A DNA stretch of 59,325 nt, counting the filler, from Circinaria calcarea (taxonomy: Eukaryota): assembly GCA_051942165.1 (NCBI GenBank). It is 3 parts of 3 records of this genome, joined end to end, with 100 filler letters (N's around TTAATTAATTAA, not from the genome) between each part and the next. Parts side by side here need not be neighbours in the genome. Positions count along the whole stretch, not along the records: positions 19,850 to 39,576 come from JAVECS010000195.1; 2 more parts are not named here. One strand, written 5' to 3'. Of the stretch, positions 131 to 39,676 are shown piece by piece. The notes beneath the pieces were generated by a model, which was not told where the DNA came from, did no database searches, and saw nothing but the letters and a program-made list of their open reading frames with translations. A program made the translations under genes and the position numbers. The stretch's first letter is position 1; each line of letters opens with the position of its first letter.

Positions 131-145
131 CAGGACTTGAATTAT

Positions 146-13627: not shown

Positions 13628-13945
13628 GGCAGATAGACTCATGTGATTTCAGTGACCTCCATATTACCTATCTGTAGGGCACAAATGGACCTAACGTGGA
13701 TTGGAATATACACATCGGGGACTTGGTGATGGAAACGGCCTTATAAGGGAAGTTGAGCCACATTATGCAGGGATTCTACGGGATGACATTGGGCAAAGAT
13801 CGCCATGGATTGGGCATTTCCACTTTTATGGAGATATTTTAGAGATTGACCAGGGTGTGCAACTGGTATCTGTCTCTTTGCTTGACTGTCAACATGAAAA
13901 ATACTCTTAATATGATAAGGCTGGCAGGATAATCCGCTGTAAGCC

Positions 13946-15782
13946 ATGAAACCGTTCAGATCGACTGGACTTTTCGCCTCCACTACATCATGGACCTGCC
14001 GAAGATGTCTACAGAAACCGCGCAAAACTCCCCTAGACGCCTGGAGGTCCACATCAAGTACCGCAAAGGGAAGCGGCAACAGAAGACGAAAGAAAGGCCC
14101 TGTTGTCCTGTCTGCTGCTACTGGAACCTTGGCTGCTGGGACGTTGCTGTTTACGGACAATGTAAAGCACGGGTATGCTGCAGTTGAGAGAACAGCAAGG
14201 GTAGTGAGTACATTGGCTGTATGTATAAACGAGTGAGTAGGCTTAGCATCAAACAAATTGTAGAAGCTCAGCTAATTGCCTGCCTTGCAGTTACCGAGTC
14301 ACTCTCAAGCACAATAGCGACATGATCGAAGAGAACGCTGCCTTGCTTAACGCATGTCACAAGCGCTGTGCTGAGCGAACGCTCTCTGTCCTCGAAAAAA
14401 ATGGTTCTATATTTATCAAGCTCGGGCAGCATCTCAGTAGCATGAATTATCTCCTGCCACTCGAATGGACGGAAACTTTCATCCCTCTTCAAGACAGATG
14501 TCCTATCTCTTCTTATGAATCGATAGAAGCGATGTTCATCAAAGACACCGGACACCCAATTGCCAACCTCTTTGATGAGTTTGATAAGCAGCCCATTGGA
14601 TCCGCCTCCCTTGCGCAAGTCCACCGCGCGGTGATGAAAGATACTGGACAAAAAGTTGCTGTCAAAGTTCAGCACCCTAAATTAGAAGAATGGGTACCAT
14701 TGGATATGGCCCTTACACGTTTCACCTTTGCAACGCTCAAGCGCTTTTTCCCAGAGTACGATCTGGAATGGCTATCAAACGAAATGGAATTCTCACTCCC
14801 TCAGGAACTCGACTTTGCTCAGGAAGGCCGAAACGCCATAAGAGCAAGGGAATATTTCAAAAACATTCATGATGCACCTTTGGTCATTCCAGGCGTCAAA
14901 TGGGGTTTGAAACGCATCTTAGTAATGGAGTACATATCCGGCCATCGCCCCGACGATCTTAATTACATTGACTCCAACGGCATCGACAGAGACGAAGTTT
15001 CTGCCGCCTTATCCCGTATTTTTAACGAGATGATCTTTGGAGATGGCGCCCCCCTGCACTGTGATCCTCACGGTGGTAATATAGCCATCCGCAAGAACAC
15101 GTCACGGCGAAAGCCAAATTTCGATATCATCCTTTATGATCACGGTCTATACAGAGATATACCCAAGCAACTCCGCCGCGACTATGCCAAACTGTGGCTT
15201 GCTGTAATCGATGCGGATGAGGCAAAGATGAGGAAATATGCTTACGAAGTGGCCGGTGTTACTGATCTACAGTTCCCTCTCTTCGCAAGCGCCATCACCG
15301 GCCGTGACTATCGTGTCGTAACAAAATCGGTTGTCTCGGCGAGGTCAGAGCAAGAGAGAGACGAGATCTCGGGGGCTATGGGTGACGGAATGTTGCAGCA
15401 GCTTGTGCAGCTCCTCGGTCAAGTCCCAAGAATCATGCTCTTGATTCTAAAGACCAACGATCTGAGTACATGGCCCGCTTCTACCTTCACGGACTGCATT
15501 GTACTAACTATTTGTTTCCCAGCCCGCTCCCTCGATGAGAATCTCCACACCCGCCAGGGACCGGTCCACACGTTCATGATCCTCGCGCGCTATTGCAGCC
15601 GTACCGTCTTCCAAGAGCAACTGGAAATCATCCGTCGGCACGGTAGCGTGCTGTGGCCGAGCAATCTTTTCCGCCTTCTCGGTGCTTGGGGATCGTATAT
15701 GAGGGTTGAATTGAAGTTATCGATATATGAGTATTATCTTTCGTTGCGACGAGGCCTCGGGTATGGGGCCGCACCGTTATAG
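13946..15782 (+). CDS. ABC1/UbiB/ADCK atypical kinase (ADCK1/Mcp2-Cqd2-like), mitochondrial
   Basis: Arg/Ser-rich presequence-like N-terminus, FIKLGQ (KxGQ), ASLAQVH, VAVKVQHP, HCDPHGGN, LYDHGL; introns ~14233-14290 and 15466-15522. Confidence 0.93.
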
Positions 15783-16407
15783 ACATGATTAGAAGAGTGG
15801 ACTTTCCGGCTTTAGCGGGCAAGGGAATGGGCGTTTGACAGCACGGAGATACCGCATTGCATGTACAGCTTGGGAAGCACAGGATTACGGATGGTGTATA
15901 TACACTACTATTAATACGGCGTAGAGAGCACTGCTCAAGGCCTTTCGTGTCTAATAGACATCCGGATAGATCACACAAGTACTTTCGATAGAAGGAATAC
16001 GGCTGGTATGGGTGTCGCAAGGCTGTTCTACCTCGCGGCCTATTCGCAGGAGCCAGATGCCCGGTACCATACGTAGGAGAAGGTTCCACTACTCTGGTAG
16101 CCCCGATTTGGCCAACGATGCTGGCCGCACTGTGCTTGAACGCTTCAAGTAATTTGCGGAGTTCCGTACGTCACCGCGCATTTGCAAAGGCCCACGGAAT
16201 CGCTCCGACACTCTCATTGGATGCCAGGTTCCAGTTTTTCTGCAGGTCCCGAGGGCAGGAGGAGAACAAGCGGGGCCTTACGGAGGGAGCTCCTACCTAC
16301 AACGGGATAAGGTGGGTGGCGCCCCGAGTGTTAGCGCATGGCCGGACGGGGATCCGGAGATGGGAGGTGGGAAGATTGCCTGGGAAGAGCTTTATCGTGC
16401 ATCTCGC

Positions 16408-16421
16408 CACGTGCCCACGTG
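16408..16421 (+). promoter_or_regulatory. Tandem CACGTG E-boxes (Pho4/NUC-1/PalcA-type sites) upstream of alkaline phosphatase
   Basis: cacgtg-cc-cacgtg at 16408-16413 and 16416-16421, ~210 bp before ATG 16629; TATATA at 16553-16558. Confidence 0.6.
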
Positions 16422-16628
16422 CGGTTGAAGATGAAGCTGATTGAGCGAGGATGGAAAGCCTCCGCTGTCATTGCTGCGAGCGAGTCTCCCGGGAAGATCT
16501 CATGCATTGCGTCGTCGACGAGCTGGACAGGGCTCCTCTTGGGCAATGGAAGTATATAGCTCTTGGATGCCCTGCACCTGCATGGTTTGGATAGGTATTG
16601 GAAAGCGTCGCGAATCATCTCCTTGACC

Positions 16629-19007
16629 ATGTTTTCCTTAAAGGCAGCTGTTGCAGCTGCTGTGTTCTTTCGTCTGGCTTCGGCGCAGACCTTTCAAAGG
16701 CTGGGAGCATGCCCAACCCTCGGCTGTGTCTTTCCCCCCGATCAGTGAGCAATTTTGGGTTTCATATCTTCTGAGAACGCGTAGCTTTGGGTCCGGTTTC
16801 TGACCACATATGTTGCGCAGAGCAGATTTTCTCGCAGGCCAATACTTTGATATTCGCCTCGAGATCCACGCGCCGGTCAACGGCTCCGAAGCCAATGGCG
16901 GTGTTCCGGATCAGGCTTTCAAGTTCACGATCGCCAAAGACGGAGGCCGTCCGGTAGATGCGGCTACCTACTTTAAAGTCCCTGAACCAGCACTCGAACG
17001 CTGGAATTTTTCGTGGTACGAAGACCTTTTCGCTCAAGACGCAAAGACTCCGTCTGTGGTCAACGTTGCGTCCAAAGCATACAGGCGTGTTGCCTTGTAT
17101 GAGCCGGGTAGCTATATAGCCACGCTGTCATATTATAATGGCTCTACCACCGTTGCCGACTGGCTGGTGAGACCTCTCGCCGAGGTCAAAAGAGCCAAGA
17201 ATGTCATCTTGTTTATCGGGGATGGTATGACCACAAACATGATCACGGCGGCGAGGCTCATTGGTCACAAGAGCGTGAACGGGAGGTATCAGAGCAAGAT
17301 GATGATGGACCAGTTTCCCGTGGTCGGACATCAAATGGTAAGCAGCTAGAAATCTATTGACTCATTTCATGTTCGGCACCCCCTACCCTGGAAAAATAGG
17401 TGCACGACCTCTTCGCTCTTGGCTATTGTCCAGCCAAGCCGTCCAAAGTCGTCTTATCTTGGGGGGACGTAAAGCTGATACTACATCATAGACTCATTCA
17501 CTCGATAGCTTCATCACGGACAGCGCCAATTCTGCTTCGGCGTTGTACACTGGCCACAAATCAACGGTCAATGCTATGGGGGTCTATGCTGATTCCTCCC
17601 CGTCAGCGTTTGATGATCCAAAAGTAGAGACCATTGTTGAGATCTTAACCCGCGTTTGGGGTTCCGCCATCGGCGTCGTAACCACAGCTTTCATGGCTGA
17701 CGCCACTCCAATGGCGCTCACAGGTCATACTCGTGCTCGTTCGACCTATGGCGCATTGATTGACCAGCAACTAAGGGGAGTAACCAATTATACATGGACA
17801 AACTTTACTGGTCCAGACGTTGCCTTTGGTGGAGGAGCGGAGCAGTTCTATCCGGGCCGAACGTCTTACCAGGGCAAGAATTACTACGAGCAGTACGCTA
17901 ATGCGGGATACTCCATATCTCTTAATAAGACTTCTATGCAAGCTGCATCGAACACTACCAAGGCCTTGGGTATCTTCTCCGTGTCCAATCTGCCCGTCTG
18001 GCTAGACCGCAATGTCTACACCAACAATTTGAGGAATCGTTCAAACTCACCCGCTGGTGACAGGAAGGATGCTACGGATCTTCCTGGGCTGAAAGAGATG
18101 ACCTTGAAAGCAATTGATATTCTGCATGCCCGTGGTGGAAAGAAGGGATTCTTTATGATGTCGGAAGCTGCTTCTATTGATAAACAAATGCACGCACTAG
18201 ATTATGATCGTGCTCTGGGAGATCTTTTGGAACTAGACGACACGGTGAAAGCAACGGTTCAGAAGCTCAAGGACATCGGCGAGCTGAAAAACACGCTGAT
18301 TATAGTTACCGCTGACCACGGTCATGGCTTTGGTAAATTTTCAATGTCTTCTGATGTACATCTTTTCTAAACGTGCTATTCAGATGTTTTCGGTTCTGCC
18401 GATACGACATACCTCTCACAAGCCAATACCGACCGCAAGAAGCGTAACGCTATCGGTACCTACGCCAACAGTGGTCTCTCCCAATACACTGTCGCTCAAG
18501 CATCTAATAGCTCTCTCCAAGCGTCAACCGGCTCTCAGCTCATCTTCAATAGTGGGGCCGCCTTCCCTGCCAATTGGGATCCCAGATACACCCTTGCACA
18601 AGGCGTTGCTGCCAATCCAGACCATCGGGAGAATTACCGAGTACATAAGAACGGACCGCGTGTGCCGAGTACTAATCTGACCGGTGGGCTCGGAGGCTCT
18701 GACTTTTATGCGAATCCAAAGGATAACGTGGACGGCTTTTTGGTAACTGGGAATTTGCCAGTGGATGCGGACCAAGGCGTCCATTCATTGACTGACGTTC
18801 CTGTCTTCGCCATGGGGCCATGTCAAGAACTATTTTCCGGTAAGGAAACCATCCCGCAGTGTCTTGCCGGTTGTTTGGAAAGCGCCATGTGAGAAGCCGT
18901 ACTGATTGATAATCCTAGGCGTTTATGGTAATATCGACGTCTTCTTCAACATGGCCCAGTGTCTCGGCCTTGGACGCTCAAACAACGGTACAGGGAGAAT
19001 TAGATAG
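16629..19007 (+). CDS. Secreted alkaline phosphatase with N-terminal extension
   Basis: Signal peptide MFSLKAAVAAAVFFRLASA; KNVILFIGDGM, catalytic TDSANSA, FFMMSEAASIDKQMH, VTADHGH, VHSLTDVPVFAMGP; five exons, stop 19005-19007. Confidence 0.93.
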
Positions 19008-19567
19008 ATTAAAGGGGTTCTTTAATGAAGGTGTACGAGTACAATTCAGCCAATCTTGTCTACCATTGACCTTTTCATCGACGATGCCTCTTATTACTGC
19101 AACTGGTGCGTTCGGTTTGCCCAACATATTTGTACATAGGGTTCATAAACGCCAAAGTAATCAATAACCAAAATCACTGGAAAATTGACTTTTTCAATCG
19201 AGACTGCTACCACTACATTTATAAAAAATAATTCTCAATCTCAGAGATCAGTGTAAGCCGGTCAAAGCGGCGCGGGGTCACTCCTCACTCTCAGCGTTGA
19301 AGTTGTGTCTGCTAAAAAGATAGGCAGTACTCTGTCCCTTTTCATTGCATTGTTCCGCAGCCAATAGTGCTACTAATCGAGACCGAGACCCTGCCCCGCC
19401 CATGATGGATGCACCCCCATTCAGAAAATGTGGGAGTATAAAGACGGTAAAATCTCGACTCTCTGCGCCAAACTTGAGATGGTTTCGAGGGACCACCCTG
19501 CAGAATAAACCTCTGATCTACCATAGCGCCAGTGAAATTTTTTTTCCCAATTCCATTGAGTGACAGA

Positions 19568-19607
19568 ATGGAGGAGCAAGTCGAGCGGTTGGTTGATAAA
19601 GCCTGGG
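19568..19607 (+). CDS. First exon of a probable P-loop phosphoribulokinase/uridine-kinase-like (Yfh7-type) gene, truncated by the assembly gap
   Basis: ATG GAG GAG CAA GTC GAG CGG TTG GTT GAT AAA GCC TGG G|gtactt = MEEQVERLVDKAW, an N-terminus I associate with this fungal family; intron-like sequence then runs into the N gap. Confidence 0.5.
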
Positions 19608-19749
19608 GTACTTACTTACCACTATTGTTTCCACTTGAGCACACACACTTATTGTTTCCAACTTCTTTTTGTTCTTTTTTTCAATAAAAAGGAGGGAAAA
19701 AGAAGAAATCGATTTACTGATTACGACCCTTTGTCCCCCGGGGAGGGGG

Positions 19750-19849
19750 NNNNNNNNNNNNNNNNNNNNNNNNNNNNNNNNNNNNNNNNNNNNTTAATTA
19801 ATTAANNNNNNNNNNNNNNNNNNNNNNNNNNNNNNNNNNNNNNNNNNNN
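19750..19849. other. Assembly gap/contig linker (44 N + TTAATTAATTAA + 44 N)
   Basis: Exactly 100 nt with a six-frame stop linker; identical to the second gap. Confidence 0.97.
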
Positions 19850-20902
19850 TTCCTAGCCCCTGCAAATTCCCCACGCCCCTGATACCAATCCGTCATCACG
19901 CCCGTGCCGGACAGACACCACTAAAATGTTCCCCAAACTCACACCGCAACCGTCAACTCCTTCCCCCCCCCCCCCGGCGGGGTTTCCACGCCTTGACAAG
20001 AAAAGCAAGCACAGAGAAGAAAGAGAGGAAAGAGATTTGGAGTCACAGGTGTACGGCACGGCACAGAGGCGCGGGGGGATTTGCAGTTTCGGGCGAAGCC
20101 GGCATTCGATGCAGTTCCAGCCGGCAACCTAGGGGGCCCGGGGAGTCAAGTGGAAGAGTAGGTAGGGGTTCCCCTTTACGCTGGAAGGAAATTATACAAA
20201 GGGGGGGGGGGGTTGGAGAACCCGGTTCGAGAAAAACAATAAGATAAAGGATGGCAATGAATTAAGTTAAGACCCCCGGGGGGGTGGTAAACCATAATAA
20301 ATAGCGATTGGGGGGTTTTGGTAATGGTGTAAATCGTCACATTATATTTTTTTGGGGGGGGATGTGAGGTTTTCAAGTGAAAAAGCGTTTTGGAGTTTGA
20401 TTACTGTGGGGAGATGGGGAACACACATTTCAGGGGTATACATGGGAGGACAACTATAGTAAGCGAGCGAGTTCCCAAATGGAAAAGAGTTGTAAAACGC
20501 CCCCGCCTACGGAACAGCAATTTGGATCTTATGCTCCTTTCTTTTTTTCTCCCAACAAGAAGATATCCCGCTGTTTGAAATCCCCCCCGCTCGCGAGGGA
20601 AGAACCAAGATGCCGTTTGCTGCGGCTTATGAATCTCGTTGCTTTTTGTCAACTTATCGCATGCTTGAGAAGGCTTAGTTTCATGCCGATTGGAAAGGAA
20701 GTCTACTTCGTTTCTGAGAGTGGGTTGGTAGAATAGCTTGTTGAAAAAAATGCTAGGTCTTAGAGAGTAACACAGCCTCTGTTAGTAACGCTGTGTAGCT
20801 CCACACTGCACTGTATACACCACTACCAGCATTAAAAACTCGTCGCGCTAAACATTGATACCTTGAGCAATTCGAAGCCGCACTCGCCACAGCGAGCCCA
20901 GC

Positions 20903-22630
20903 TCAACCCATTGCCATTCTCCCTCGTACCAAGGCCCTTACCCCCTTCGAATCAAGCCTGGGATGTGCGACTTGATAATCGTGCCGGAACTCCACGTCGG
21001 AGATGTCGGTCTCGAAAAGCTTCATGTCGTAGCGTGCCATGGCCGCAATGACGAGATAGAGCTCTGCATGCGCCAGGTTGATGCCGATGCACTTCCTACC
21101 GCCCTTGCTGAATGCCATTTGATATTTACGCCTCTCCGCACCCTCAAGACCGAGCCACCGGTCGGGGTTGAAGGTCCATGGGTCGGGAAATACCTTCTCG
21201 TCGGTGTGAACACAGAGAGACGTCATGCTCACTGGCGTCCCAGGCGGGATTTTGTAGCTTTTATATTGCAGTGCTTCGTCGGGTGCGACTCGACATGTCC
21301 TGCCTGTTACACCAAATGATAAGCGGTTGCCCTCGGTAATCACAGCGGTGAAGTATGGAAGTTGCTCAAGCTCGGTCCAGGACGCCGCGTCCGGAACTGT
21401 TCGGAGTTCAGCTCGTAGTTTCGCTAATATCTTAGGATTGGCCAACAGATGGAAATGGGTAATCACTATGGACTTGGCTGTTGACTCAGTACCTGCAGTT
21501 TCTATTAGGTACATTGGTGCAAATTATGTGCAGTTGCAAATGAGAATAGATGTTACCAGCCATGATTAATAACACTCCTTCCTGCTCGAGCCGCGTCAAA
21601 CTCTTTTCTGGCGCTGGTAACGTAGGACTGTCACGTAGCTCGTAGAATATCGAGCGCTTTTCACCCTTTTTGACGTTATCTTTGTCGTCTAGGACTTGCT
21701 GGATGTCAGCTCGTATCTTCTGCTAATTTATCAGTAAATAACAGGCAGGGAAGGGCTAGTATTCACCGTTGAGAGTTCCATCATGTTGATCACGCCAGGG
21801 GGTACAAGATTTTGGCTAAGAGATAATGGTAGCTTATCCAATGCATCAATAACCCACGGAAAGTGTGCACTAAACTTCACTCCCAACAATAACTCTGTTA
21901 AGTTGCGACGCAACGTACCACATTCTGCCTCGTCTTTCAGGAGATTGTTGTTATTTCCAAAGCTGTATTGTGAGACGACACTGGATTAGGTCAGCTAAGG
22001 GCGAGGAATATCTAGGGACTTTGCCTACTCCATAGCGAGGCCGAAATAGAGGTCGGATAGATTAGCAGGCGTCTGCTGCTTCATATGTTCTTCGAGGGCC
22101 TGACAGAGTTGTTCTGCCTTCCGACGGATCATGGACTCCAGACCCAGGACGCTCCTCTTGTTAAAGAACAGATTAAGAGCTTCTCGCCGCTGTTTATGAA
22201 TGTCGAAGTTTGTGGTCCCTCCGACTGATAGCTTCAGCGGGAAACTCGCGACCTGAAACCAATCCTTATCTCGTCTACGGAGTGACGGTGCGTAGAGATC
22301 GTCTAGAAAATCAAGGTCTTTGACATGCAGCTCTCTTGGTGTGACTCGTACGATGGGGCCTAGGGATACTCAAGTTAAAACAGAGCGATTGGATTCAATG
22401 CCTTGATAGTTACCATATTCTGCATGCAAATCCCTGATCTTGAAAACATACTGGCCCGGTTGAACCACATCATAGTAGAACTCGTACCATGAGGTCAATG
22501 CAGCAAGCCTTGGGCCCGGAAACTTCGCTAAAGGACTCAGAAGGAGTCTATATAATATGGTGTATATGATCCATCCAAGCTGAAGAACAAGGGCTGTATA
22601 AGTTATCTGGGTCCAAGAGACTACCGTCAT
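20903..22630 (-). CDS. Cytochrome P450 monooxygenase (secondary-metabolism type), apparently intact, five exons
   Basis: N-terminal TM + PLAKFPGPRLAALTSWYEFY, GPIVRVTP, I-helix AG|TEST, ExxR (EGNR), FNPDRW, heme motif FSKGGRKCIG; all exons splice in frame without stops. Confidence 0.93.
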
Positions 22631-23234
22631 CACGGAAAGAAGCCAAGGACCGAGAAGCAGGAGGTTCTCTGCCGCGAAGGCCAAGCAAGAAGCTGAAGGC
22701 AGGCTAGGGAAGCCAACAGGAGCATGCAAAATCAGAGACGCTCGCAGACTCGACCGCGGCGATCCCTTGGGATATCCTGAAACCCTCTGCCTGGGGCGAA
22801 TTCAGAATACCTGGAGATGGATTTGGCAGCAGGAGAGAAAGTCAGAAAAGGCATCTTGCGCCGGAAGGTATCCCTCGACAGGAGCATGCAAAGTCCTGTG
22901 CAGTTCCACTGTTGGAAGGAGGCGCGGGGGAGGTAAGGCGTAGTACGGAGTAGGGGATGGCTGAAAGATTACCCTTAGCGCTGACGGGAGAACTAATGCA
23001 CGATTTGAACGTGCCGCTCCCGGGCCGCAGTCAGGGTGCCGCATGCTTGGCGGTAGATCTTCCCTGATTCCTCCCATACCGTGAACCTGTGAGGTGTAAG
23101 ATATTTGCTTGTGCAATAATGGCCTGGATTTTGCTCACTTCTTCCCTGACATTGAACACCTGACACTGTTTGGTTTAAGAAACATAGGCTTTTATCATGG
23201 TGGAGTCGAAACTGGTGCTATTATGAACTGATAT

Positions 23235-24074
23235 CTATACCATCGCTTCTTCCATCGCAGTGTCCTCATTAATCGATATTGGCGTAGTCGTATCCCGATA
23301 GCACGCAGAGTTCTCTGTAGCCCAATCGCGGAGAGCTGACCAATCCCTACACTTCCGGAGCTGACAGTCACCGGTGATATTAGGGCCCCAGCTACTCAAG
23401 AGGGTTTCCCCAGCAGTGCACATAACGTACTGCCGGAGGCTGTCGAAACAGTGCGTAGAGTGGCCGGCTGGATAAGTCAAAGGTTCGCCTCTGCTTATTT
23501 CATAAAGGTCTTTCGAATTATAGTCTAGAATATCTGTCATCAGTATTAAGTCGCACCAAAGACATCCTGGACATACCAGGCAATGAAGCTAATGATAAGC
23601 ATCAATGACATAAACGCCTTTGCTAGAGTCACTGGGCAAACTCATTGACTCCGGTAATCGTTTCTTAGTAGCCCACTGATGGTCAACGGCAACAATACCA
23701 TGGGCAGGAACAATGGCATTCCAAGCTCGGTCAACCGTTGGTACATCGCTGATCTCTAGGGAGCTATATTGAGACCACCAGTTGTATTAGATTCATCTTT
23801 CTGAAGAAGGACTTATACCTGCTGGAAATCAAATTAGTCGACTATTGCAGGTAATCGACTATAAAAACGTACTATAACTATGAGCCAATGTGCTCGACTC
23901 AAGGTGATGAATAAGAACCATCAGGGAAAGGGCAAAGGTTGATAACCCCAGAACGAACAGTGCTACTTCTTTCCAACACCGCAAAGGACGCCTCAAGAAA
24001 GTCCACAGTATGCCATCTCTTTCGTGCTCGACATCCCGACCCAGAGGCATATACGAAGCTTTTGATATTGCCAT
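23235..24074 (-). pseudogene. DUF3328/UstYa-family oxidase pseudogene
   Basis: N-terminal TM; GVYVIDAYH*LHCL and HSTHCFDSLRQYVMC (two HxxHC motifs), CRDWSALRDWA. In-frame stops TGA 23793-23795, TAA 23787-23789, TAG 23589-23591, and an apparent 1-nt frameshift near 23505 (TIIRKTF/YEISRG). Confidence 0.85.
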
Positions 24075-24904
24075 TTTGCACCTTTAGTCAGTGAACAGAT
24101 GAGAAAGGTGTGAACAAGAACTCAGATTCTATTGGGCATCAAGGGACGATAGTAGAAGAGAGGCGATTATCGCTGAGAAAGCTCTCACCGTCCCACAACC
24201 CCCAATCTCCTCAATGGGCGCCGAGAAGGCGCCGGGAACATCACTAATAGTTCTTAGTATCTCAGGGTAGTCTCGTTTTAATTCTGTACTGTAGGATCAA
24301 AGCTCAGGCACCTCCCGTAGATCTCTACTCCAAGCCCACTGTAAGGCCAACATAAGCTAAAATAGTCAAACTGGCAGACGGCGCAGGCAACGGGTCGAAT
24401 ACTATGCGGGATAGGCAGTCATCATTGGTTTCGATGGACTGATGGTGGTTTACATAGGTCAGCCAAGTCCGACTAGAGTACTCCCGCTTTTACAACTCCG
24501 TAAGGCACAGCATCCCACAGCGGAGAGTACGATAAGGCCCTGCATATGAAGCATACACACTCTACGGACTATGCTCCATATCTGGATCTCATTGCAACAC
24601 GACCGGACGCATAGTACATATGGCCGTTCCATGGTGTTTCAAAATGCGCCAGCCGATCCCAGCGCTTCCACCAGCCAAAAAATACTTGGGTATGGCTGTC
24701 TATCGGGCTTGGCTCCTTGTCCTAATTGCTTAACGCTTGCATTGATTCCAGGATATAGACTGCCATACACACTGTATAGCAGCAGTCTAGGACAATACAT
24801 ATCGAGAGGTTCCCGTTCAGTACCATCATCAAGCCTTCGCTTCTTCCTCGGGTTTCCTATCCCTCCTTTCAAAGTGTTTTCAAGGCACCAAAAATAAAGC
24901 AACA

Positions 24905-26422
24905 ATGTTCATCTTGTCGCCGAAGAGCCTTATTGCAGTTGGCGCCATACTACCTGCCCTTGCTACTATCGCTGTGTCCTTACGTTTCTATATTAGGCTC
25001 TCCAAAGCCTCCTCCGTTGATAAAGATGATTGGTTGATTCTGTTTTCACTTGTACGCCTTTCCCAGGTTCCGAATGCTATATGGCGAATTACGTTGACCT
25101 CAATGATCAGGTTCTCACCCTTGGCCTGGGCATCATGTTGATTGTTGGTAGGTTCCATTTTTCTTTACGCTTTTATGAGAGTTGTCTGACACTATTTCAC
25201 TATTTTATAGGGGCCGCCGTGGGTAGCTTAGCACAACCCACACCATTGGGTGATGGTCCGCTCGTATTCATGTTCGTACTCAATGACGCCTTGGTCATAA
25301 CTGAGAAGGTGAAAGCCTTTTAACCTCTTCAAATGCCTATGCAACAACAGCTTATCCACCGATCTAGATGAAATGGGCTTTCAACCTAATTCAAGTTTGG
25401 TCTTTCGGTGCTATAAAGCTTTCCGTGATTTATTTCTACAGGAAGATTTTCCGAGGCAAGATATTCGATATCTGCTCCAAAGTCTTAATAGGGATTATCA
25501 TATGCTGGACTCTGGCTTTCTTTTTTACCAATTTGTTTCAGTGCGGCACTGATTTCTCGGCGATATACTCGACACTTCATGACTATCTTACTCACTGTAC
25601 CGGTGATTTGTTTTACCAAAAGGCCTTTTTATTCTCGGACGTGTTTACGGATGCCATTATTCTGGCAATGCCAGTGCCTTTGGTATATTCCTCTGTTTTT
25701 TACTTATTCCATTGGTTCTGCTAATCCATTTGAAGATCTGGGAACTGCATCTGTCAACTGCCCGAAAAGCTGCTCTTTGCGGTGTATTCCTGCTGGGCGC
25801 AATGTACGTTTTCTTCCCTTAATCCCTCCCCGTACAGTTTTTTGTCAGGAAAGCTAATAGCAATTTCCAACGCCCAGAGCTGTTTTGGCAGGAATCGCCA
25901 GACTCGTGATTTTCGAATTATATCTCAAAAGTAATCTAATACTTATACTAGGAGAGAAATAGCGTCCTAACTGACCTAAATCGTAGATTCCTTCTCTCAA
26001 TCGCAGGGAATTAGTAAGTGCAAGTACTTTTTGCCTAGATATAGGAGCTAATATTGCCGGTAGTGCTTATCCCAAGATATTTATGCTGGAGCCTAACTGA
26101 AATGGGCATTTCCATCGTTGCCGCCTGCCTACCAACCCTAAGGCCTTTGTTCGGCGAGTTCTCGCTCCAGAGCCTCGTCAGGAGCGTGCGAGGTATTTTC
26201 TCGCTGCCTTCGTCAATCGTCTCAATCTTCTCCTGTGGCCAATCCAGCAAGAATGCGGAAAGCGCATCGAATTCATCTCACGAAAAATTTGCGCAACATG
26301 ATCCCCATTTTGATATGGGAACGGATATCTGCGCGATGAGAGATATTGAGGCTCAGCATAATTTACCCCCGGGAAAAATTATGGTGCATAACAATATTTC
26401 GCACCGGTTTTCCGAGTGTTAA
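24905..26422 (+). CDS. PTH11-like / SAT4-family fungal rhodopsin-domain 7-TM protein (no CFEM domain)
   Basis: AVSLRFYIR, DDWLILFS, IKLSVIYFYRKIF, FQC, DVFTDAIILAMPVPL|IWELHLSTARK, WSLTEMGISIVAACLPTLRPL; about eight exons splice in frame. Confidence 0.9.
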
Positions 26423-26745
26423 CTGATTCAGCATTTAGCACCTAGCTTGAGCGCAGAATTTAAATAATATTTTATATTAATCTCAGAGCTATCCTATGTT
26501 CAGTGTGACGGTTGTAATAATGGCTTAACCTTACACTTACTATTATATATCGCCTCTGCCAGGCGGAGGCGAGCGAACATACACGAAAGAAATTGTATTG
26601 CCGGAGATTTAGTAAGACTCCGCAGCCTCAAAAACTGTCTTTCATTCTGCTTTACTCCATTCGAAAAAAGCAATAGCGATGACACACGCAACCTGTTGGA
26701 AGCCATAGGGCTTACCGAGGCACGTGTTGCATAGGAGCTCCAGGC

Positions 26746-27323
26746 TCAACACTTCTATATACATCATATATCAGCGGTGAAGAGCAGCTGGTGGGGTAGC
26801 ATGATGGTTATACCACGCAGTGCAGCTGGTGGAAGCCGTCCAGAACATAAATGCCTTTGTCCGGAGTACTCGGCATATTTCTCGCAATAGGCAGCTGATG
26901 ATCCGCAGCCCATGTGTGGGGAAGGGCGACGAAACCGTTGACGGCGTACGAATCCCATGCTCGATCTGCCACAGTTTCGTTGTCGGAGCTGAAATCCGAG
27001 TAGAGCTGAAATGCCTGCCATGTTTCCCCCATCGACTCAACACCAGCTGATTTAGAGTCAGCCGAGCAACTACATAGAACGAAAGGTCATTGGGCACTGT
27101 AGCTAATTCTATTCCACCTCTGCTTCAAGGATGCTAGCTGTGATATGGTGTATACGTTCAATCCGCATAGAAAGATAACAAAAAGCGCAACAGAGGAAAT
27201 GTAAAGAGCGCGCTTGGCATTTCTTGGGGGTGAAGAAGAGGCAGGCGGTGGAGACACATGTGCTTCTAAAAGATGGCTTTCATCACCAGCATCATCTAAT
27301 TTGTCAAGCTGGTGGTAGAGCAT
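26746..27323 (-). pseudogene. Second DUF3328/UstYa-family gene, 3'-truncated
   Basis: MLYHQLDK..TM helix; DNETVADRAWDS, KGIYVLDGFHQLHCV (first HxxHC). After the next intron the frame reads KC* and I found no second HxxHC/LRQxxMC exon before the 3' end of the PTH11-like gene. Confidence 0.72.
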
Positions 27324-28131
27324 CGTAAGAGGCCGCACAAAAGTACTGAAAGTACAGTTTGGTAGATTTAGACTGCTTGGGAAATAATACCGCAAAAAAG
27401 GATAATGGATAAAAACTCGAGAACGGCAGTAAAGTTTTCAAAGACGCCGCATTTGCACTGGCGTATGAAAATCCATATCCCATACCAACCCCATCACCAG
27501 CGACGACAGGGGCAGGCCATTGTGCCGTGGGCTCTTTTCCCCCGCTTGGCATGTTCGGTGTTGGTGATATGGTACCACACCTCGGTTGATCCTACACGGT
27601 ATAACCTACAGTAGATACTAGTTCGGAGTGGCGTTGGCTACTGTAGCTGCACCGCAAGTACCGCTTATCCCACCAATTGGCTATTTATTTCGAGGCTTTG
27701 GCCCTTTGCTTAAGGGAGCCCCATGCTTACTGGTAGCCAGGACGCAAGACATGCAGCCACAGACATTGGCGTGAAACGTGTACGGAGAGCCTTGCTCGTG
27801 GAGTTGTATCACGCACTATAGTATACCTAAGTGGAGACAAGCTACTGATCGCTATGGTGACACCCCTAAAGGACAAAGTACGAGAGAAAGTCTCAGGTAG
27901 GTAGGTCATGATGGAGGGGAGGGGGGCGCACCGCATAACATAGTTTAGTACACCTACGGGAAAAGATTTAGGGGTAGTGCAAATCTTCGCGAGGCGTTTA
28001 TTTTGTGTAACAGGTCATCATGATTAAGATGCCAGATGGGTTGATTTTGGTACAAACTACCTACACGGTCGTGTAATCAGGAATACAGCAGTAAGTTCTG
28101 CATTTGCTAGCATCGAGCAAACGCGCTTCGT

Positions 28132-29498
28132 TCATGAATCCCAAGGAACAAGGGCATCCTTCCCGACCTTGGCCTCAATCATCCGCTTCGAGAGGTCCCA
28201 CAGCGCGGCGCCGAGCATGGGATCCGAAGCTTGGTTGGATTCTTTGCCCGGCATGCCCTGTTGAGATATTGTATCAGTACCAGCCGACATGGCGAGACGG
28301 CAAGATCTAAATTAAATGAGACTTACAGGGTCTTGCAAATAGTAGCCGTTCCATCCTTTCTCTTCAACTTCAGGGCTTGTTGCAGCGTAACTGTTGAGAG
28401 CCGAGAATTAGCTCGCCTTCTGATGCGCGAAGACACCGTTCTAGTGAAAAGACTGGTAGTTGATAAAATGGTGGAGACTCACAGAGCGCTGTAGGAACCC
28501 TGTTCGGGGTCACGGCCAATCGCCAACATGGCAGTTGTAACCAGCTTGCCAAACAAGCCTGGATAGGCGTCTTTCCACTGCTTTTGCATCTCCGTGTTAA
28601 CCTAGGTTGCTTGTGTTAGCCAGGAGACCTCACGACCGGGACTCCATCCTTAATTGGAGGATTGTAAAGCTAGAAAACAGTAATTGCGACACATACCGCA
28701 CCGGGATGCACAGAAAGTACATAGATGTTGTCTCCGTTCTTCTTGATAACCCTTTCGTATATGCCATACTTGGCTGCTAGTATCATCGCCAACTTCGCCC
28801 GGCCATACACCTCCAGGTTACCAATCTCCGGATTGTTGATTTCTTCCAGAGAACCAAAGTGAACCACACTGGGCGCCATGCGGTGCTGCTCCGACGACTC
28901 AAAAACAATCCGAGGAGCTGGCGTATCTGGCAAACGTGAAGTCTTCCGGAGAAGTGGGTACAGCTGGTTGCACACGTAGAACTGGCCAAGATAGTTTACC
29001 TGGAAATGGCGATCGTAGCCGTCGGCGGTCTCTCCGTACTGATTTGCATTGATACCGGCGGAGAGAATAAGCTTGAGCAATATTGTCAGTTTTAGTAATT
29101 CGAGACGGATGGTGCCCAGGAAATGGAAAAGGTACCAAATCGAGGCGTTCCTCGCGTTCGCGAATGCCACTGAAGACTTCCTCGATTTGTTTTAGGTTAC
29201 CCATATCGCACGGTAGCCACTCGATCTGCGCGTCTTCACCAGCCTCCTTCTTAATCTTCCCTATAGCTTCTTGACCTTGGTCTTCCTTACGGTTGATCAT
29301 GATGACGCGGGCTTTGTTGAGAACGAAGGCACGGGAGACCTCATACCTGTTAAGATTGACTGTGTAAGGGGCGGCCAATGAAGACATTGAAATAGCCTAC
29401 CCTATACCCATGGCCCCGCCCACCACGATGGCAACTCTACCGGAGAGATCATGAATCTCCTTCTTAGGCCCAATGACTGGTTTGAGAACGGATTGCAT
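28132..29498 (-). CDS. Short-chain dehydrogenase/reductase (retinol-dehydrogenase-like)
   Basis: MQSVLKPVIGPKKEIHDLSGRVAIVVGGAMGIG|YEVSRAF, FQVNYLGQF, YGRAK (YxxxK), VHPGA|VNTEMQ, ASDPMLGAALWDLS..PWDS*; six exons. Confidence 0.9.
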
Positions 29499-30393
29499 AT
29501 TGGAGACGGCCTGATGTTTCAGCGCTTCGAGAATGGAGGCGGGAAAATCAAAGGTGAAAGGTGTATGTTGAGGAAGACGATATGTTTTATCACATAGTTT
29601 CAAGGGGCTCTTTCGATTCAAAGCTGCGGAGACACTGTTTACATCATTGCGTTTGTGTAACTAACGTCATTGATGGCCGCGATGTTTCGGAGATTCCTCC
29701 GACGGATCGAATAGAAGCCCGTCATATCACATCAAAGAGACGTGTGAAAACACATCTCCTATCAGCGGAAAAAGAGACCACCGAGGGTGACTGTGTATCC
29801 TTGAGACACTTCAACGAGCAGAGAATAGAGGCATGGGATATTTAACAGCAGTTCATCTGATCCTACATAGCACAAAGTTATTTAGTAACCGACCAAACAG
29901 CCGACACTACGGTGAATTATATACCCGTGACCCTAAAGATTACTTAAAATGGAAATTGTTACCGAACGCAGAACACCGCACATCTTAAAACGCTCCTCTG
30001 TTTATGTCTCGTCAGCAACTCGGACATCAAAGGCATCTCTCCGTCCTGCAGCCATGCATATGCTGGAAAGTATCCCTATGACGATAGCATATAAAAACCC
30101 CGTGGCCTTATCTGATTGCTGGGACGCCGGGGGTTTCATATGAGCGAGCTCATTTGCGATCGCCAAACGAATGGAGTGCGAATACCAGCCATGTTTGGGG
30201 CTTTTACGCGACTATCCATCCCCACGTTCTGGAGATACCATGTTGTCTATATACCGGGGCACATGCTCCGGACCTGGCCTTGCATTTCGAGAAGGTCAAA
30301 ATTTTGATTCGTGGTACTGAATTGCTACGGAACCGTTGTCGACAGTGAGCTAGGAGCCCTGCCTTCTTGTAAACCACACACCCAAAGCTCATC

Positions 30394-30978
30394 ATGCGCC
30401 CCTTAATCTCCCTCCTCCTCCTCCTCCTATCAATCTCCATAATTGGTGTCTTTCCCCTGCCTCTCGAGACCACGCCCGCCAGCTTCCACCCCAGTCACCC
30501 ATCCCAACTCTTCCCCCGCTACCTCGTGCACTGCCTCGACCCCCAATTATACGACCCCATCCGACTCAACCACTGCTACGAAACTGCCCACCTTCTCTTC
30601 TGCCGTCCCAACGCCGGCCGTCCCACGGTCTTTGCACGCCGGCCCCGCTTCCCAGATACCGGGTTCAAAGTCCCTTTCAGCTGGATCATGGGCACCTGCT
30701 CCATCACCGTCGACATCGCGGATCACGTGGATCCCGCGACGGAGGAGACGTCGAGGGTGAGTGCCATCGGCACGAGAGCACTGGAGATTGTCAGGACGTG
30801 TGTGGACCATGGACCGCAGAAGGGGGGCTGGACGACGGTCGGGACACGTGATAACTTGAAAGTGGTGGTGCGCGGGAGGGTCAATGTGGAAGGGGAGAAA
30901 GATAATGACTGGAAGCATTGTCTGCGGGGGTCAGTTAACCCACTCCCGTCGGATCTGGGGCCGATACATTATGCGTGA
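30394..30978 (+). CDS. Secreted Cys-containing small protein, putative KP4/Ecp2-like effector module
   Basis: Single exon, 194 aa, signal peptide MRPLISLLLLLLSISIIGVFP; pattern C..HC..A..P.SW..GTC.I.VD..I...A..I..TC....GGW. The fold call is pattern-based inference. Confidence 0.75.
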   Translation: MRPLISLLLLLLSISIIGVFPLPLETTPASFHPSHPSQLFPRYLVHCLDPQLYDPIRLNHCYETAHLLFCRPNAGRPTVFARRPRFPDTGFKVPFSWIMGTCSITVDIADHVDPATEETSRVSAIGTRALEIVRTCVDHGPQKGGWTTVGTRDNLKVVVRGRVNVEGEKDNDWKHCLRGSVNPLPSDLGPIHYA

Positions 30979-31592
30979 AGGTCAGAAGGTGGGAGGCAAA
31001 TGCAGTTTTTTTTCTCTCTTTTGCTTGGTTTTGCAACAGAATCTCTGTCACTTTCTCATAATTACTCTGTTGCACGCAACGGATGTCTAGGCAAAATAGG
31101 CGGCAAACTTAACTGCCCGCTTACTGCAAACAAAAATGGCAACCGTTGAAGTAGAAAATGAATATGATATCCAAAAATAAAAGAGTGACTTACGTAGCTA
31201 AGGCGGTTGCTTACCATCCGAAGTACTACCAGGTCTTTATCCTTTGGATCGAGAGTATAGGGAATGAAAGTATCCCAAATTTAGCCCTCAGATATCGAAT
31301 TCCGGCGCAATGCCTCACAACACCAGATCTCGATCAATGCATTCATTCTTCTAACCCATACCCACCAAACGTCCACGAACAAGTTGATCTTACGGCTTGT
31401 TTTGAAGCAGAGTATGGCAAACCACGCGTCATCGAAAGACCAATTCCAGACCTAGCTCCCACCATACTGCCGTTACGTCCTGGAACAAGTGACAGGGGAC
31501 TCAGATAAATCTCTGAAATTGGAGCACCGTTCATTGCCATGTAAGTGTGAAAGCAAACAACTGACATGGCAGCATCCGCAGCTCGAGCCCTC

Positions 31593-33149
31593 TCATATGG
31601 TCTTGCACGCTGACACAGGCTGTCTCTGCCATGCAGCTTGTTCCTCACAGCCAGCATCTTTAGAAACGTCATGGGCAAAAATGGTCAGGTTTACATGTGG
31701 TGGGAGGGCTTTCAGACCGCCCACTCCAGGGTTGGCAGTTCGTTTCGGATGCTTGGTTTTGACAATGTCCTGCATGCTGATCGGGGGATCAGCGTGGAGG
31801 CCATAGTACGCTCTCCCACCTTGGGACGAGTGTATCGGATTTTCGATGCAGGTGCTTAGGAGAGCGGCGAAAGCTACTTTTATTTGGGTCGCGAGTAAGA
31901 CGACCGGCGTGGTGGCGGAAATGGTGACACCGCATGACCCTAGAGAAACGGCCGAATTAGCCTCTGAGGGTGTTGGTTACTTTCATTAAGCTTACTAGAC
32001 AGGTACGACTTGGGAGTCCTGGGCTTAACCGTCACCGTATCTGATGGAAACCCTATCCCTTGCCATTCTAGCTGAGAGCAATCGACTAAAGCAGGGCTCC
32101 CGAGTTTTGCGTCGCATTCGTAGGTCATCTCGTTTTGAGACTGAGACCCCACACGGGAAGACGGTCCAGGATCCCACCAAGCGACAAGGCGACCCCTTGG
32201 GTGACTCATTTCATCAGCTCGGTGCCAGAGCTCATGAGCCACCAACTGATAGTGAGCTTTAGGGTCACTGTTTTTTGTCGTGTCTGCAAGTGAACTAAGA
32301 CCCGCGGAAAGTCTCAGGGGAACAAGTGCACTATAGTCTCCCGGTGGACGCAGGTCCGATTTGGGATTGCCTATGGAAACCGTAATGAACCGCACATCGG
32401 TTGCTACTCGGCATGACTCGTTAGTAGAAATCATGGAAAACGAGATCGTTAGTTAACCCACCGCTGGATTCATATCGTGGCGGGAATCCTTCAACTCGGA
32501 CGTAGTTGTGTAGTGCGGCTAGACCATTTGTGATCCAACCGCCGACGCTTCTCTGCTGGCTACATTGCTGGATGACATAGCCCAACATGCCACGGATATC
32601 GTTAGGGACCAGTTCCATGTGTTCAGGATAGCCCAGGTTCGGGCCAGCCACTTGCACCCTTATTCTGCAAGTGCCTAACGCTGTATGTTAGCTCTGTGAA
32701 GGACGATACGAGCATTGTTATTCTGTAACTAGACTTTACCATGGGTTGCCGTCCACGGAAGACTATAGGGCCCCGGAGAGCCAACTAAGTCGTAGCGGAC
32801 CGGGTTGTTTCCATGGGGTAGTGCATGGTCTCCTGCAGCTTCGCAGTCAGCAGCCAGAACAACATAACCCGGTGGTCCAGTGCATTGATGGAAGTTCGGA
32901 GCAACTGGCGCGCGAGGGATTAGTTCTCGAGAAACTAAGGAGTGAGGAATAGGCATCATGTTAATCTAAGAATTTCGAGAGTATCAATTCCTTGAAATCA
33001 TAGGAATTATAATTGAGAAAGTATAAGAGCTGTGCCACGGTTGTATTGAGCAGCGCCTGTGACGGTTCTGTACGTTCGTGAAGATAACAATGTGCATGTG
33101 CAATCCAGTGAAACCAAATTGCAATCGAGCCAAGGAAGAAAGACCACAT
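31593..33149 (-). CDS. Secreted protein with two Cys-patterned KP4/Ecp2-like modules, about five exons
   Basis: MWSFFLGSIAIWFHWIAHA signal; module 1 HQC..ADCEAA..LPWTATHG|TCRIGV..YVIQQC..GGWIT; module 2 YECDAKLGSPALVDCSQL..|SCGVTI..ALLSTCI..QGGRAY; ends ..SACKTI*. Introns carry ctaac/ctaat branch sites; the first donor (gtggca) is weak. Confidence 0.7.
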
Positions 33150-34143
33150 ATTTATTAGCAGAGCAGATGAGTTGCACCAAAAAACAGGTCTACAACATTT
33201 CATGTTTCGGGTTGTAAAGAGTCCCTCGAGTCGATCTTCGTCGTCTGGCCAAGGCGTACATTGCCCCTTCTCCCTGACCAGCCCAAGTGCATCGACTTCT
33301 GAGCGGAAGAAGGGTTCATAGTCGAAGAGAAGGCCATTGATCGGGGATCCACATCCTTCTCAACCGCAGTCAGCTACTTTGGCACATTGACATTCACCGC
33401 ACCGCCTCAACAAACCTAGCTCTTAGCTTATTCCATTATTCCTTCTGAGCTTTTGCCGTCAACCACAAACAATCTATGACGAATACCTGGTGATCTCTCA
33501 TATGTCTATACACATATTCTGGTTGATAGAGCTCGCGGCTCAGTTGAACAACGCATCCAAAGAGTAGGGTCTGGTTTTCAAGAACATGCAGTAATTCTTG
33601 GCCATTTTGCACGCGGGTGACAAAACAGTTGGCACGTCAAATAATTTGGAGTCCCTGGCAGTAGGCCACGATAACCTCTAACTCTTGATTCGGGGGGTTC
33701 GGTTTTTTTTTGGCTAGAAATTTGTTATGCACGGGAGCACGGCACCGATGGGCTAAGCCCGATGCTGTAAAGCAAGCTGGCAGAAACTGTGCATTCGTAT
33801 CGGCCACACTAGGTCTACTAGCATAACATAGCTCCGTTGTGGATGTACAATAGAGCTATGTAAGGCCAGGCGGGGATGGCCTGGCAGACGAGTATTGATT
33901 GGCTGGGAGCACTGTTATTCCGGGCCTACCTAACATCCTCTGAGTATAACAAAGGAAAACTGAACCCCCCAAATGAAACAAGGCCGGCTACTATACTGGC
34001 ACATGACAGATACCGCTCATCATGTTGTACCACTACGTCTCCTCGCCTTAAAAATCCATCTCATGATTAAAAGACTTTAACAGTAAAGGATAGCCCCCGT
34101 TCTCTCCGCTAGCTGGGCCCGTTTCTGTATTCTCTTTCGCAGC

Positions 34144-34715
34144 ATGCCTTTGAGGCTCCAAATAGTCGTCTTCTATGCCGACTTCGATGAGATTATTAAG
34201 TGCTTTGGCTCTCCTACGAAAGCCCTTTCTCCCTTCCCTGCGTATTGTATACACCACCTATGGGACAGGACCTGATGCTCGTGCCGAATCGATGAAAGAA
34301 GCAAAGGAACGGACCCTGAGTGCTCACAAGGGCCGACCCTGCTAGCCGTTGGATCAAGGTAGTTGACACTGCTACCGGGAAGATAGTTGCTGTAGCACAA
34401 TGGCTCGAATACCAGATAGATCCTTACCCGCAGCCTCCTGCACGTCCAATCCAGGCATACTGGTAGCCAGAGGGAGGGAAGGAACTTCGCCACGAGGGCT
34501 ATCCAACAGCAGAGAGGCATTCGAACACGGAGGGCTGCACGACCCCATTTGCGTAAGTTCTAGAAACCTTTTAGCTTCTGGAATGCGTCACCGAGTTCTC
34601 TTTGAGTGCTGAATATCTGCTTCACTCATCCCGACTATCGACGACTCGGGGCCGGCTATCTCCTTGTAGAATGGGGCACGAAGAGAGCACGAGATGGGCC
34701 TCGAGGCATGGCTTT
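34144..34715 (+). pseudogene. GNAT-family acetyltransferase pseudogene
   Basis: Fragments MPLRLQ..ADFDEIIKC, SRWIKVVDTATGKIVAVAQW, AYW*PEG (TAG 34464-34466), LNICFTHPDYRRLGAGYLLVEWGTKRAREMGLEAW (acetyl-CoA motif A); several frameshifts, C-terminus missing. Confidence 0.8.
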
Positions 34716-39535: not shown

Positions 39536-39576
39536 GGATAGGGTACTTTTTGGGAAAGAAATTCCGGGAGTGGAGT

Positions 39577-39676
39577 NNNNNNNNNNNNNNNNNNNNNNNN
39601 NNNNNNNNNNNNNNNNNNNNTTAATTAATTAANNNNNNNNNNNNNNNNNNNNNNNNNNNNNNNNNNNNNNNNNNNN
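39577..39676. other. Assembly gap/contig linker (44 N + TTAATTAATTAA + 44 N)
   Basis: Same 100-nt structure as the first gap; interrupts the 3' end of UTP21. Confidence 0.97.

What the first reader, a model, noticed from the sequence alone, without database searches (positions are those of the whole stretch)
20903..29498. Candidate undescribed DUF3328 (UstYa)-P450-7TM biosynthetic cluster caught in decay
Seen: P450(-), DUF3328(-), PTH11-like(+), DUF3328(-), SDR(-) within 8.6 kb, with no NRPS, PKS, terpene cyclase or repeat precursor in the window. Established: DUF3328 HxxHC oxidases crosslink or halogenate peptides in ustiloxin, phomopsin, asperipin-2a and cyclochlorotine pathways, often as several paralogues, and ustiloxin also uses a P450. 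Inference: remnant of a dikaritin-like or other peptide-modifying cluster of a composition I do not recognise, including a rhodopsin-domain protein as possible sensor or accessory. Intact versions in relatives could encode a new metabolite. SDR membership is uncertain.
Basis: partly seen in the sequence, partly recalled or inferred. Interest (0 to 1): 0.72.

Follow-up and report, generated by a model that had tools for sequence, protein, structure and literature searches.

The report
Decayed fungal cyclic-peptide gene cluster
This fungus carries a broken copy of a small gene cluster that probably makes a ring-shaped peptide; intact copies in the same genome and in other fungi add the short peptide gene missing here and point to an uncharacterised natural product.

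Summary
The five genes are real. The P450 (505 aa), the PF20684 7TM protein (367 aa) and the SDR (330 aa) are intact. DUF3328-A has 3 stops and 2 frameshifts. DUF3328-B ends after its first HxxHC motif, at a truncated dispersed repeat. The locus lies 1 kb from a contig end; the window is three unrelated contigs joined by linkers.

An intact paralogous cluster in the same genome (G000:C253) and metagenome loci carry the same four genes plus a secreted precursor ending in GT-x(1-2)-[IV]-[AG]-[EQ]-x-W, either as Kex2 repeats or as a single core. P450 and DUF3328-A are also linked in Aspergillus, Xylariales, Paramyrothecium and Helotiales records. The SDR matched none of these loci and is a bystander. 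No precursor was found on the window's contig.

Verdict: a decayed copy of a five-gene dikaritin-type RiPP cluster with Tyr-free, Trp-terminated cores; product unknown. Decay is uneven: P450 and 7TM still look functional. Side finding: 15 of 16 7TM proteins on DUF3328-bearing contigs or loci fall in one clade, against 1 of 35 background ones. I found no paper on this family in a library that lacks key subscription papers.

The parts
20903..22630 (-). Cytochrome P450, intact, 5 exons, 505 aa; relatives are named 'TRI4' or 'trichodiene oxygenase-related' by their sources
   Evidence: 64% identical to the C253 paralogue; tree
23221..24074 (-). DUF3328/UstYa gene A, pseudogene: in-frame stops at 23795-23793, 23789-23787 and 23591-23589 (the last inside the first HxxHC motif); frameshifts near 23505 and near 23265
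24905..26422 (+). PF20684 (PTH11-like, no CFEM) 7TM protein, intact, 8 exons, 367 aa
   Evidence: best paralogue in G000 is the C253 cluster gene, 141 bits against 72 for the next; tree
26694..26768 (+). 5' 75 nt of a dispersed repeat of about 115 nt with TG...CA ends (solo-LTR-like); cut off where it meets intron 2 of DUF3328-B
   Evidence: (40 other matches among 40 of 110 candidates scored)
26769..27323 (-). DUF3328/UstYa gene B, 5' half only: exons 27323-27098 and 27046-26817 (152 aa, first HxxHC intact), then an intron remnant; exon 3 with the second HxxHC is missing
   Evidence: no matching 3' exon on C195 or elsewhere in G000 apart from the C253 paralogue's and more distant DUF3328 genes
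28132..29498 (-). Short-chain dehydrogenase, intact, 6 exons, 330 aa; bystander, not a cluster member
   Evidence: no match in L031-L050, in L083-L089 or by tblastx on C253
19750..19849 (.). Artificial contig linker (44 N + 12-nt all-frame stop + 44 N); left end of contig C195
39577..39676 (.). Second contig linker; right end of C195

Best explanation
The locus is a decayed copy of a conserved five-gene fungal RiPP (dikaritin-type) cluster: precursor, two DUF3328 oxidases (types A and B), one P450 and one PF20684 7TM protein. Shown: composition, linkage, precursor motif and the lesions. Inferred for intact copies: the signal peptide takes the precursor into the secretory pathway; Kex2 frees the cores at KR/RR, or the single core sits at the C-terminus; the copper-dependent DUF3328 pair cross-links the invariant C-terminal Trp to the Ile/Val four residues upstream (a victorin-like aromatic-to-aliphatic ring without Tyr or tyrosinase); the P450 adds a further oxidation. 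The bond itself is a guess (about 0.4). In the window both oxidases are dead and the precursor is lost or unassembled, so the locus cannot make the product alone. A deletion with one end inside the dispersed repeat probably removed DUF3328-B exon 3, and possibly the precursor.
For: Intact paralogue on G000:C253: DUF-B, precursor (signal peptide + 3 Trp-ending cores before RR/KR), P450 64%, DUF-A 63%, 7TM 54%. Of 7 metagenome loci found with DUF-A, L085, L086, L087 and L088 (DUF-B cut at the contig end) carry all four genes plus a precursor; L084 (5.4 kb) carries DUF-A, 7TM and precursor; L083 (2.6 kb) carries DUF-A and P450; L089 carries only two distant DUFs. L084, L085 and L088 are near-identical and count once. 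Only these genes are shared between loci. P450 and DUF-A accessions lie 2 apart in four Aspergillus species and 4 apart in Paramyrothecium and two Hypoxylon records. Three Helotiales gene models hold both in one reading. Multi-core precursor relatives exist. Both HxxHC motifs are needed for activity of the DUF3328 CctR (PMC12435403, passages).
Against: No precursor on C195 by core profile, and none of this type elsewhere in G000 besides C253's (the last two had no positive control). No product, expression or enzyme data. Gene order and orientation vary between loci. The 7TM and precursor were not seen in the Aspergillus, Xylariales or Helotiales records, and the one P450 neighbour I could test (A. 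luchuensis group) is not PF20684. L089 has DUF3328s without the rest.
Confidence: 0.85

Rival explanations
1. Partial decay with salvage (compatible with the best reading): after the oxidases died, the P450 and 7TM stayed under selection, working in trans on the C253 peptide or in a new role.
For: Five lesions in about 755 nt of DUF-A against none in 2,622 nt of P450 + 7TM: p = 5.6e-4 under a uniform lesion rate. The P450 deviates at 7 of 138 conserved columns (22 relatives: median 5, range 1-15) and has a short branch, 0.11 against a median of 0.14.
Against: The test assumes that all genes lost function at the same time. DUF-A shows only modest missense decay: 8 of 72 conserved columns, 3 of them in the frameshifted tail, against a median of 2 and a range of 0-8. 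The window P450 groups with the single-core clusters L085/L086, not with C253, so its substrate may differ.
Confidence: 0.4
2. The lesions are sequencing or assembly errors in a fragmented assembly; the cluster is intact and its precursor lies beyond the contig end 1 kb downstream of the P450, where the C253 precursor sits.
For: G000 has 5,512 contigs. On C253 the precursor starts about 0.9 kb past the P450 stop. DUF-A exon 3 is still 72-77% identical to its five nearest relatives of eight tested.
Against: All five small lesions fall in one gene and none in three flanking genes. DUF-B lacks a whole exon at a junction with a genomic repeat. DUF-A also has missense changes at invariant columns.
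Confidence: 0.07
3. The genes tailor a non-ribosomal or polyketide product (as CctR does for cyclochlorotine) whose core synthase lies beyond the contig break; the small peptides are passengers.
For: DUF3328 proteins also act on NRPS products (PMC12435403, abstract and passages). One DUF-A relative is auto-named 'Cyclochlorotine biosynthesis protein R'. The left flank is unseen.
Against: A precursor with the same core motif sits among the four genes in every locus long enough to show it. No NRPS- or PKS-sized frame lies in the flanks of L085, L086, L087, L088 or C253 (ORF lists read by eye).
Confidence: 0.05

Closest known systems
Ustiloxin cluster (ustA, ustYa/ustYb, tyrosinase ustQ, P450 and others)
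   Same: A pair of DUF3328 genes, a P450 and a secreted Kex2-repeat precursor (PMC6514808 and PMC6941272, passages).
   Different: Cores here lack Tyr and end in Trp. No tyrosinase, methyltransferase, FMO, peptidase, transporter or regulator is among the shared genes. A PF20684 7TM gene is shared. Some members have a single-core precursor.
Victorin (vic) RiPP
   Same: Tyr-free core cyclised between a C-terminal aromatic side chain (Phe) and an internal Leu (PMC9233826, passage); here a C-terminal Trp and an upstream Ile/Val are invariant.
   Different: Different core. Victorin is chlorinated and further modified. The primary paper is not held, so gene content was not compared; that vic has several DUF3328 genes and P450s is recalled.
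Asperipin-2a cluster (aprA, aprY, aprT, aprR)
   Same: Compact cluster, no tyrosinase, DUF3328 as cyclase (PMC6514808, passage).
   Different: One DUF3328, Tyr ether links, a transporter and a reductase; no P450 or 7TM.
PTH11-like class XIV fungal GPCRs (PF20684)
   Same: The 7TM protein matches PF20684; the family is expanded in Pezizomycotina and its ligands are mostly unknown (PMC13308352, passages).
   Different: No CFEM domain. It belongs to a clade whose members lie on DUF3328-bearing contigs. The review has no occurrence of 'RiPP' or 'gene cluster'.
Lichen RiPP clans R1 and R2 (Parmeliaceae)
   Same: UstY-containing clusters in lichen-forming fungi (PMC12048977, passages).
   Different: R1 has tyrosinase and methyltransferase, R2 an acetyltransferase; no precursors were found there; 'rhodopsin' does not occur in the main text.

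Membership tests
Dikaritin RiPP cluster (window locus) | DUF3328 oxidase with two intact HxxHC motifs | tested here: not met
   Gene A has a stop inside motif 1 plus further lesions; gene B lacks motif 2
Dikaritin RiPP cluster (window locus) | Nearby precursor with signal peptide and core(s) | tested here: not met
   None on the 19.7-kb contig; DNA beyond the left end is unseen
Dikaritin RiPP cluster (intact relatives) | DUF3328 oxidases with two HxxHC motifs | tested here: met
   Both genes on C253 and L085; only partly displayed for L086 and L087
Dikaritin RiPP cluster (intact relatives) | Signal-peptide precursor with repeated cores between Kex2 sites | tested here: met
   C253 and L087 are multi-core; L084/85/88 and L086 carry one core before the stop codon, a departure. 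Signal peptides were judged by eye
Ustiloxin/phomopsin type | Tyr in the core and a tyrosinase in the cluster | tested here: not met
   No Tyr in 18 distinct core rows; no further shared gene by tblastx; flanks were not scanned with a tyrosinase profile
Dikaritin RiPP cluster | Side-chain cross-linked cyclic peptide product | not testable with these tools
   needs expression, LC-MS and NMR
NRPS-linked DUF3328 cluster (cyclochlorotine type) | NRPS core gene in the cluster | tested here: not met
   None on C195 or in the flanks of L085-L088 and C253 (ORF lists read by eye)
PTH11-like class XIV GPCR | PF20684 7TM domain | tested here: met
   49.4 bits, cut-off 27
PTH11-like class XIV GPCR | N-terminal CFEM domain (PTH11 proper) | tested here: not met
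   The protein starts at its first hydrophobic segment; exon 1 has no Pfam match
PTH11-like class XIV GPCR | G-protein coupling or ligand binding | not testable with these tools
   no assay possible

The most novel reading that the evidence does not exclude
A dedicated clade of PF20684 7TM proteins is a standing part of fungal DUF3328/RiPP clusters, so this five-gene unit is a peptide-plus-partner cassette. The 7TM either senses the cluster's own Trp-bridged peptide (a new modified-peptide signal, and a ligand class for orphan PTH11-like receptors) or links the lumenal copper oxidases to the cytosol-facing P450. Single-core precursors of about 45-50 aa would mean that repeat-based genome mining misses many such clusters.
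Probability: 0.2. Interest if true: 0.85.

Novelty: new variant of a known kind. Interest (0 to 1): 0.55.

Why it matters
The broken locus itself is ordinary turnover of secondary-metabolite genes. Its value is the family it points to. First, a compact cluster whose P450 + DUF-A pair is linked in Eurotiomycetes, Sordariomycetes, Leotiomycetes and this genome, with a defined Tyr-free, Trp-terminated core and an intact copy at hand: the product and the division of labour among two DUF3328s and a P450 are directly testable. Second, single-core precursors could explain some DUF3328 clusters reported without a precursor. Third, a DUF3328-linked clade of PTH11-like proteins offers a ligand hypothesis for a large family of orphan receptors.

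Tried and rejected
SDR as member: rejected.

Precursor remnant in the window: weak words at 27628-27780 resemble a signal-peptide end and a core, but there is no start codon, tblastn E was 0.49, and the DNA alignment was not above shuffles. Two other intergenic alignments at z 3.1-3.7 among 48 tests were gappy and judged chance. A core profile scored nothing on C194-C196.

7TM co-location as DUF3328-specific: PF20684 lies on 11 of 36 DUF3328 contigs (1.35 expected by length), but also on 16 of 81 other P450 contigs and 4 of 35 PKS contigs. Among contigs numbered up to 2100, DUF against P450 gave Fisher p 0.32. Co-location alone is therefore not specific; the tree is the better evidence. An SDR control was unusable (18 of 171 candidates scored).

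RIP as cause: no signature (TpA/ApT 0.86 in DUF-A, 0.83 in P450). Recent duplication from C253: not favoured, the P450s fall in different subclades, although the two 7TMs are sisters. One clade for all six cluster 7TMs: not recovered (L087 sits apart) and not rejected (p-AU 0.31). No clade-specific metal-binding motif in the one exon aligned.

Sequencing runs: none was listed. No solved structure matched DUF-A. ESM Atlas gave no hit at 0.9 or above for the precursor. No fold or complex prediction was run.
Full report
Setting. The window is not contiguous. Two 100-nt linkers (19750-19849 and 39577-39676) join three contigs. Bases 1-19749 are G000:C194, and the finding lies on C195 (window 19850-39576). 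Contig numbers follow decreasing length, so the neighbours are unrelated. G000 has 31.5 Mb in 5,512 contigs. The nearest named relatives of the P450 are lichen-forming ascomycetes (68% to a Lobaria protein), so the host is probably one too (inference). The P450 stops 1,053 nt from the left contig end, which limits any statement that a core gene is absent.

Observation. Exon models were checked by coordinates. P450: 5 exons, 505 aa, no stop, all four canonical motifs. 7TM: 8 exons, 367 aa, no stop. SDR: 6 exons, 330 aa, no stop. Pfam confirms PF00067, PF11807 twice and PF20684 above cut-off (17 exon pieces scanned, 7 with a match). DUF3328-A has stops at 23795, 23789 and 23591, the last inside the first HxxHC motif, and frameshifts near 23505 and 23265. 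No splice choice avoids the third stop. DUF3328-B is clean for 152 codons through its first HxxHC; its second intron then runs into the first 75 nt of a dispersed repeat of about 115 nt. Its third exon is not on C195 and was not found elsewhere in G000 apart from the C253 paralogue's and more distant DUF3328 genes. [quoted passage not shown]

Intact paralogue. G000 has 71 PF11807 matches on 36 contigs. On C253 the order is DUF-B(-), precursor(-), P450(-), DUF-A(-), 7TM(+), with 55, 64, 63 and 54% identity to the window genes. All read open, with both HxxHC motifs (by eye). The precursor has a signal-peptide exon and three cores ending IGQGW before RR or KR; a fourth is cut by a stop. The C253 genes are the best paralogues of the window's P450 and 7TM in G000.

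Other genomes. A metagenome scan with a DUF-A alignment gave 7 loci. L085 and L088 have, reversed, P450(-), DUF-A(-), 7TM(+), precursor(+), DUF-B(+): the window's order with the precursor added and DUF-B in the other orientation. L084 is a shorter copy of the same locus. L086 and L087 have the same five genes in other orders, L087 with a third DUF3328. L083 is a 2.6-kb contig with DUF-A and P450. L089 has only two distant DUFs. L087 has a multi-core precursor (DGTQI[AG]EGW before KR); L084/85/88 and L086 have one core, DGTSD[IV]AE[LV]W, directly before the stop. No locus matched the SDR, and tblastx found no other shared gene. All five pairs are close: 2 accessions apart in Aspergillus californicus, egyptiacus, granulosus and aculeatinus, 4 apart in Paramyrothecium foliicola. 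Two Hypoxylon pairs are also 4 apart. Cudoniella acicularis, Monilinia laxa and Sclerotinia borealis have DUF-A and this P450 merged in one gene model, DUF first, as in the window; these are probably annotation fusions of adjacent genes. Four of 13 precursor hits carry the same core, one from Stromatinia cepivora; I read 9 of the 13. Against: Halenospora varia has its hits on different contigs, the genes between the paired accessions were not seen, and the membrane protein next to the A. luchuensis P450 is not PF20684.

History. In a tree of the P450 C-terminal part (64 rows; 54 of the 103 hits offered, one row left out as probably the window's own), the window P450 lies in a 15-row clade (96/95) with L085, L086, Lobaria, Monilinia and Cudoniella; C253 lies outside. 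The two clusters are therefore old paralogues, and the window's lost precursor was more likely of the single-core type (inference). None was found on C195 or in G000 (without positive control). It may have gone with the deletion that took DUF-B exon 3, or lie past the contig end. Decay is uneven: 5 lesions in about 755 nt of DUF-A, none in 2,622 nt of P450 and 7TM (p 5.6e-4). The P450 looks normal at conserved columns, DUF-A only mildly degraded. Continued selection on P450 and 7TM is plausible but not shown.

The 7TM gene. PF20684 is large here (138 contigs among 150 listed rows of 165; 150 of 313 candidates scored). It is enriched on DUF3328 contigs (11 of 36) but nearly as much on other P450 contigs (16 of 81), so co-location proves little. 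The tree is more telling. On one exon (104 columns, 57 rows), 15 of the 16 sequences from DUF3328-bearing contigs or loci fall in one clade (97/92), against 1 of 35 background sequences not chosen for similarity to the query. Counting only the other DUF3328 contigs of G000 it is 9 of 10. The exception is a second 7TM on C253, about 5.6 kb from DUF-B. The clade's other six members were fetched because they resemble the window protein; they lie on contigs of 2-9 kb with no DUF3328 detected. One linked fragment (C283) was too short to include. Caveats: one genome plus four metagenome loci, few columns, related rows, and a background taken mostly from the higher-scoring part of the list.

Mechanism. 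Shown: linkage, precursor motif, lesions. From established knowledge: dikaritin precursors are secreted multi-core proteins cut by Kex2 and cyclised by UstY-type enzymes, and victorin is ring-closed between a C-terminal Phe and an internal Leu (PMC9233826 and PMC6514808, passages); DUF3328s are membrane-anchored, lumen-facing, dimeric copper enzymes that need O2 and electrons. Inferred: the invariant terminal Trp is linked to the Ile/Val four residues upstream by the DUF3328 pair, and the P450 oxidises the product further. With no shared transporter or peptidase, the 7TM is either a receptor for the peptide or a membrane partner of the pathway; I cannot tell which. Overall probability of the cluster reading 0.85; of the specific bond about 0.4.

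Literature. Ten searches listed no paper on this gene set or core, and none linking DUF3328/UstYa to PTH11 or PF20684 by title or abstract start; most hits were seen as listings only. In Umemura 2020 (PMC7329392; section 7, passages, and a search of 3 supplementary text files) five core strings were absent, though the files may not list sequences. That survey used Pfam 32, which by my recall predates PF20684. PMC12048977, PMC6941272 and PMC13308352 were read as passages. Nagano 2016 reported 94 ustY-linked clusters in Aspergilli (cited in PMC6514808); it, Ding 2016, Kessler 2020 and the asperigimycin paper were not seen, so an earlier bioinformatic listing of this family is quite possible.

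Verdict. Observation confirmed; interpretation supported, with the SDR removed and the precursor supplied from relatives. New variant of a known kind. Interest 0.55: the window copy is dead, but it exposes a widespread, testable cluster family and a DUF3328-linked 7TM clade.

Noticed in passing
G000:C253 (L041 1140-9692): Intact five-gene paralogue of the window cluster. Its P450 has no introns, whereas the window's has four; the fourth core of its precursor is cut by a stop.
   Followed up: yes
L032 2334-2915 (C1070), L039 907-1206 (C883), L040 5992-6705 (C1349), L043 4765-5151 (C1887), L066 1628-2104 (C3542): Further repeat precursors with dibasic sites beside DUF3328 genes in the same genome, with Tyr-containing repeats of four different types. 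C1887 and C3542 carry near-identical precursors, possibly haplotype copies.
   Followed up: no
G000, 36 contigs: Large DUF3328 expansion (71 PF11807 matches), often as close pairs.
   Followed up: partly
G000, at least 138 contigs: Very large PF20684 (PTH11-like) family, enriched beside P450 and DUF3328 genes; the DUF3328-linked ones form one clade.
   Followed up: partly
G000:C283: A third contig with DUF3328 genes, a P450 and a PF20684 fragment; not of the window's P450 subfamily.
   Followed up: no
window 26694-26768 and at least 40 other places in G000: Dispersed repeat of about 115 nt with TG...CA ends, 84-93% identical copies; parent element not identified.
   Followed up: partly
window 30397-30978 (+): Single-exon 193-aa protein with a hydrophobic N-terminus and several cysteines, no Pfam match; looks like a small secreted protein. 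Another unassigned Cys-containing frame lies at 31596-32452 (-).
   Followed up: no
L087 720-1331 (-): A third, divergent DUF3328 gene next to the five-gene cluster in this metagenome locus.
   Followed up: no
P0185/P0196 (Aspergillus luchuensis group): Here the P450's neighbour is a 437-aa membrane protein with a weak MGAT4 (glycosyltransferase-like) match; in A. flavus AF70 the P450 model is merged with DUF7703. These may be other variants of the cluster.
   Followed up: no
window 54436-54519: 18-nt tandem repeat, 4.7 copies, coding a Ser/Thr-rich stretch inside a frame that looks like an exo-beta-1,3-glucanase (label recalled).
   Followed up: no
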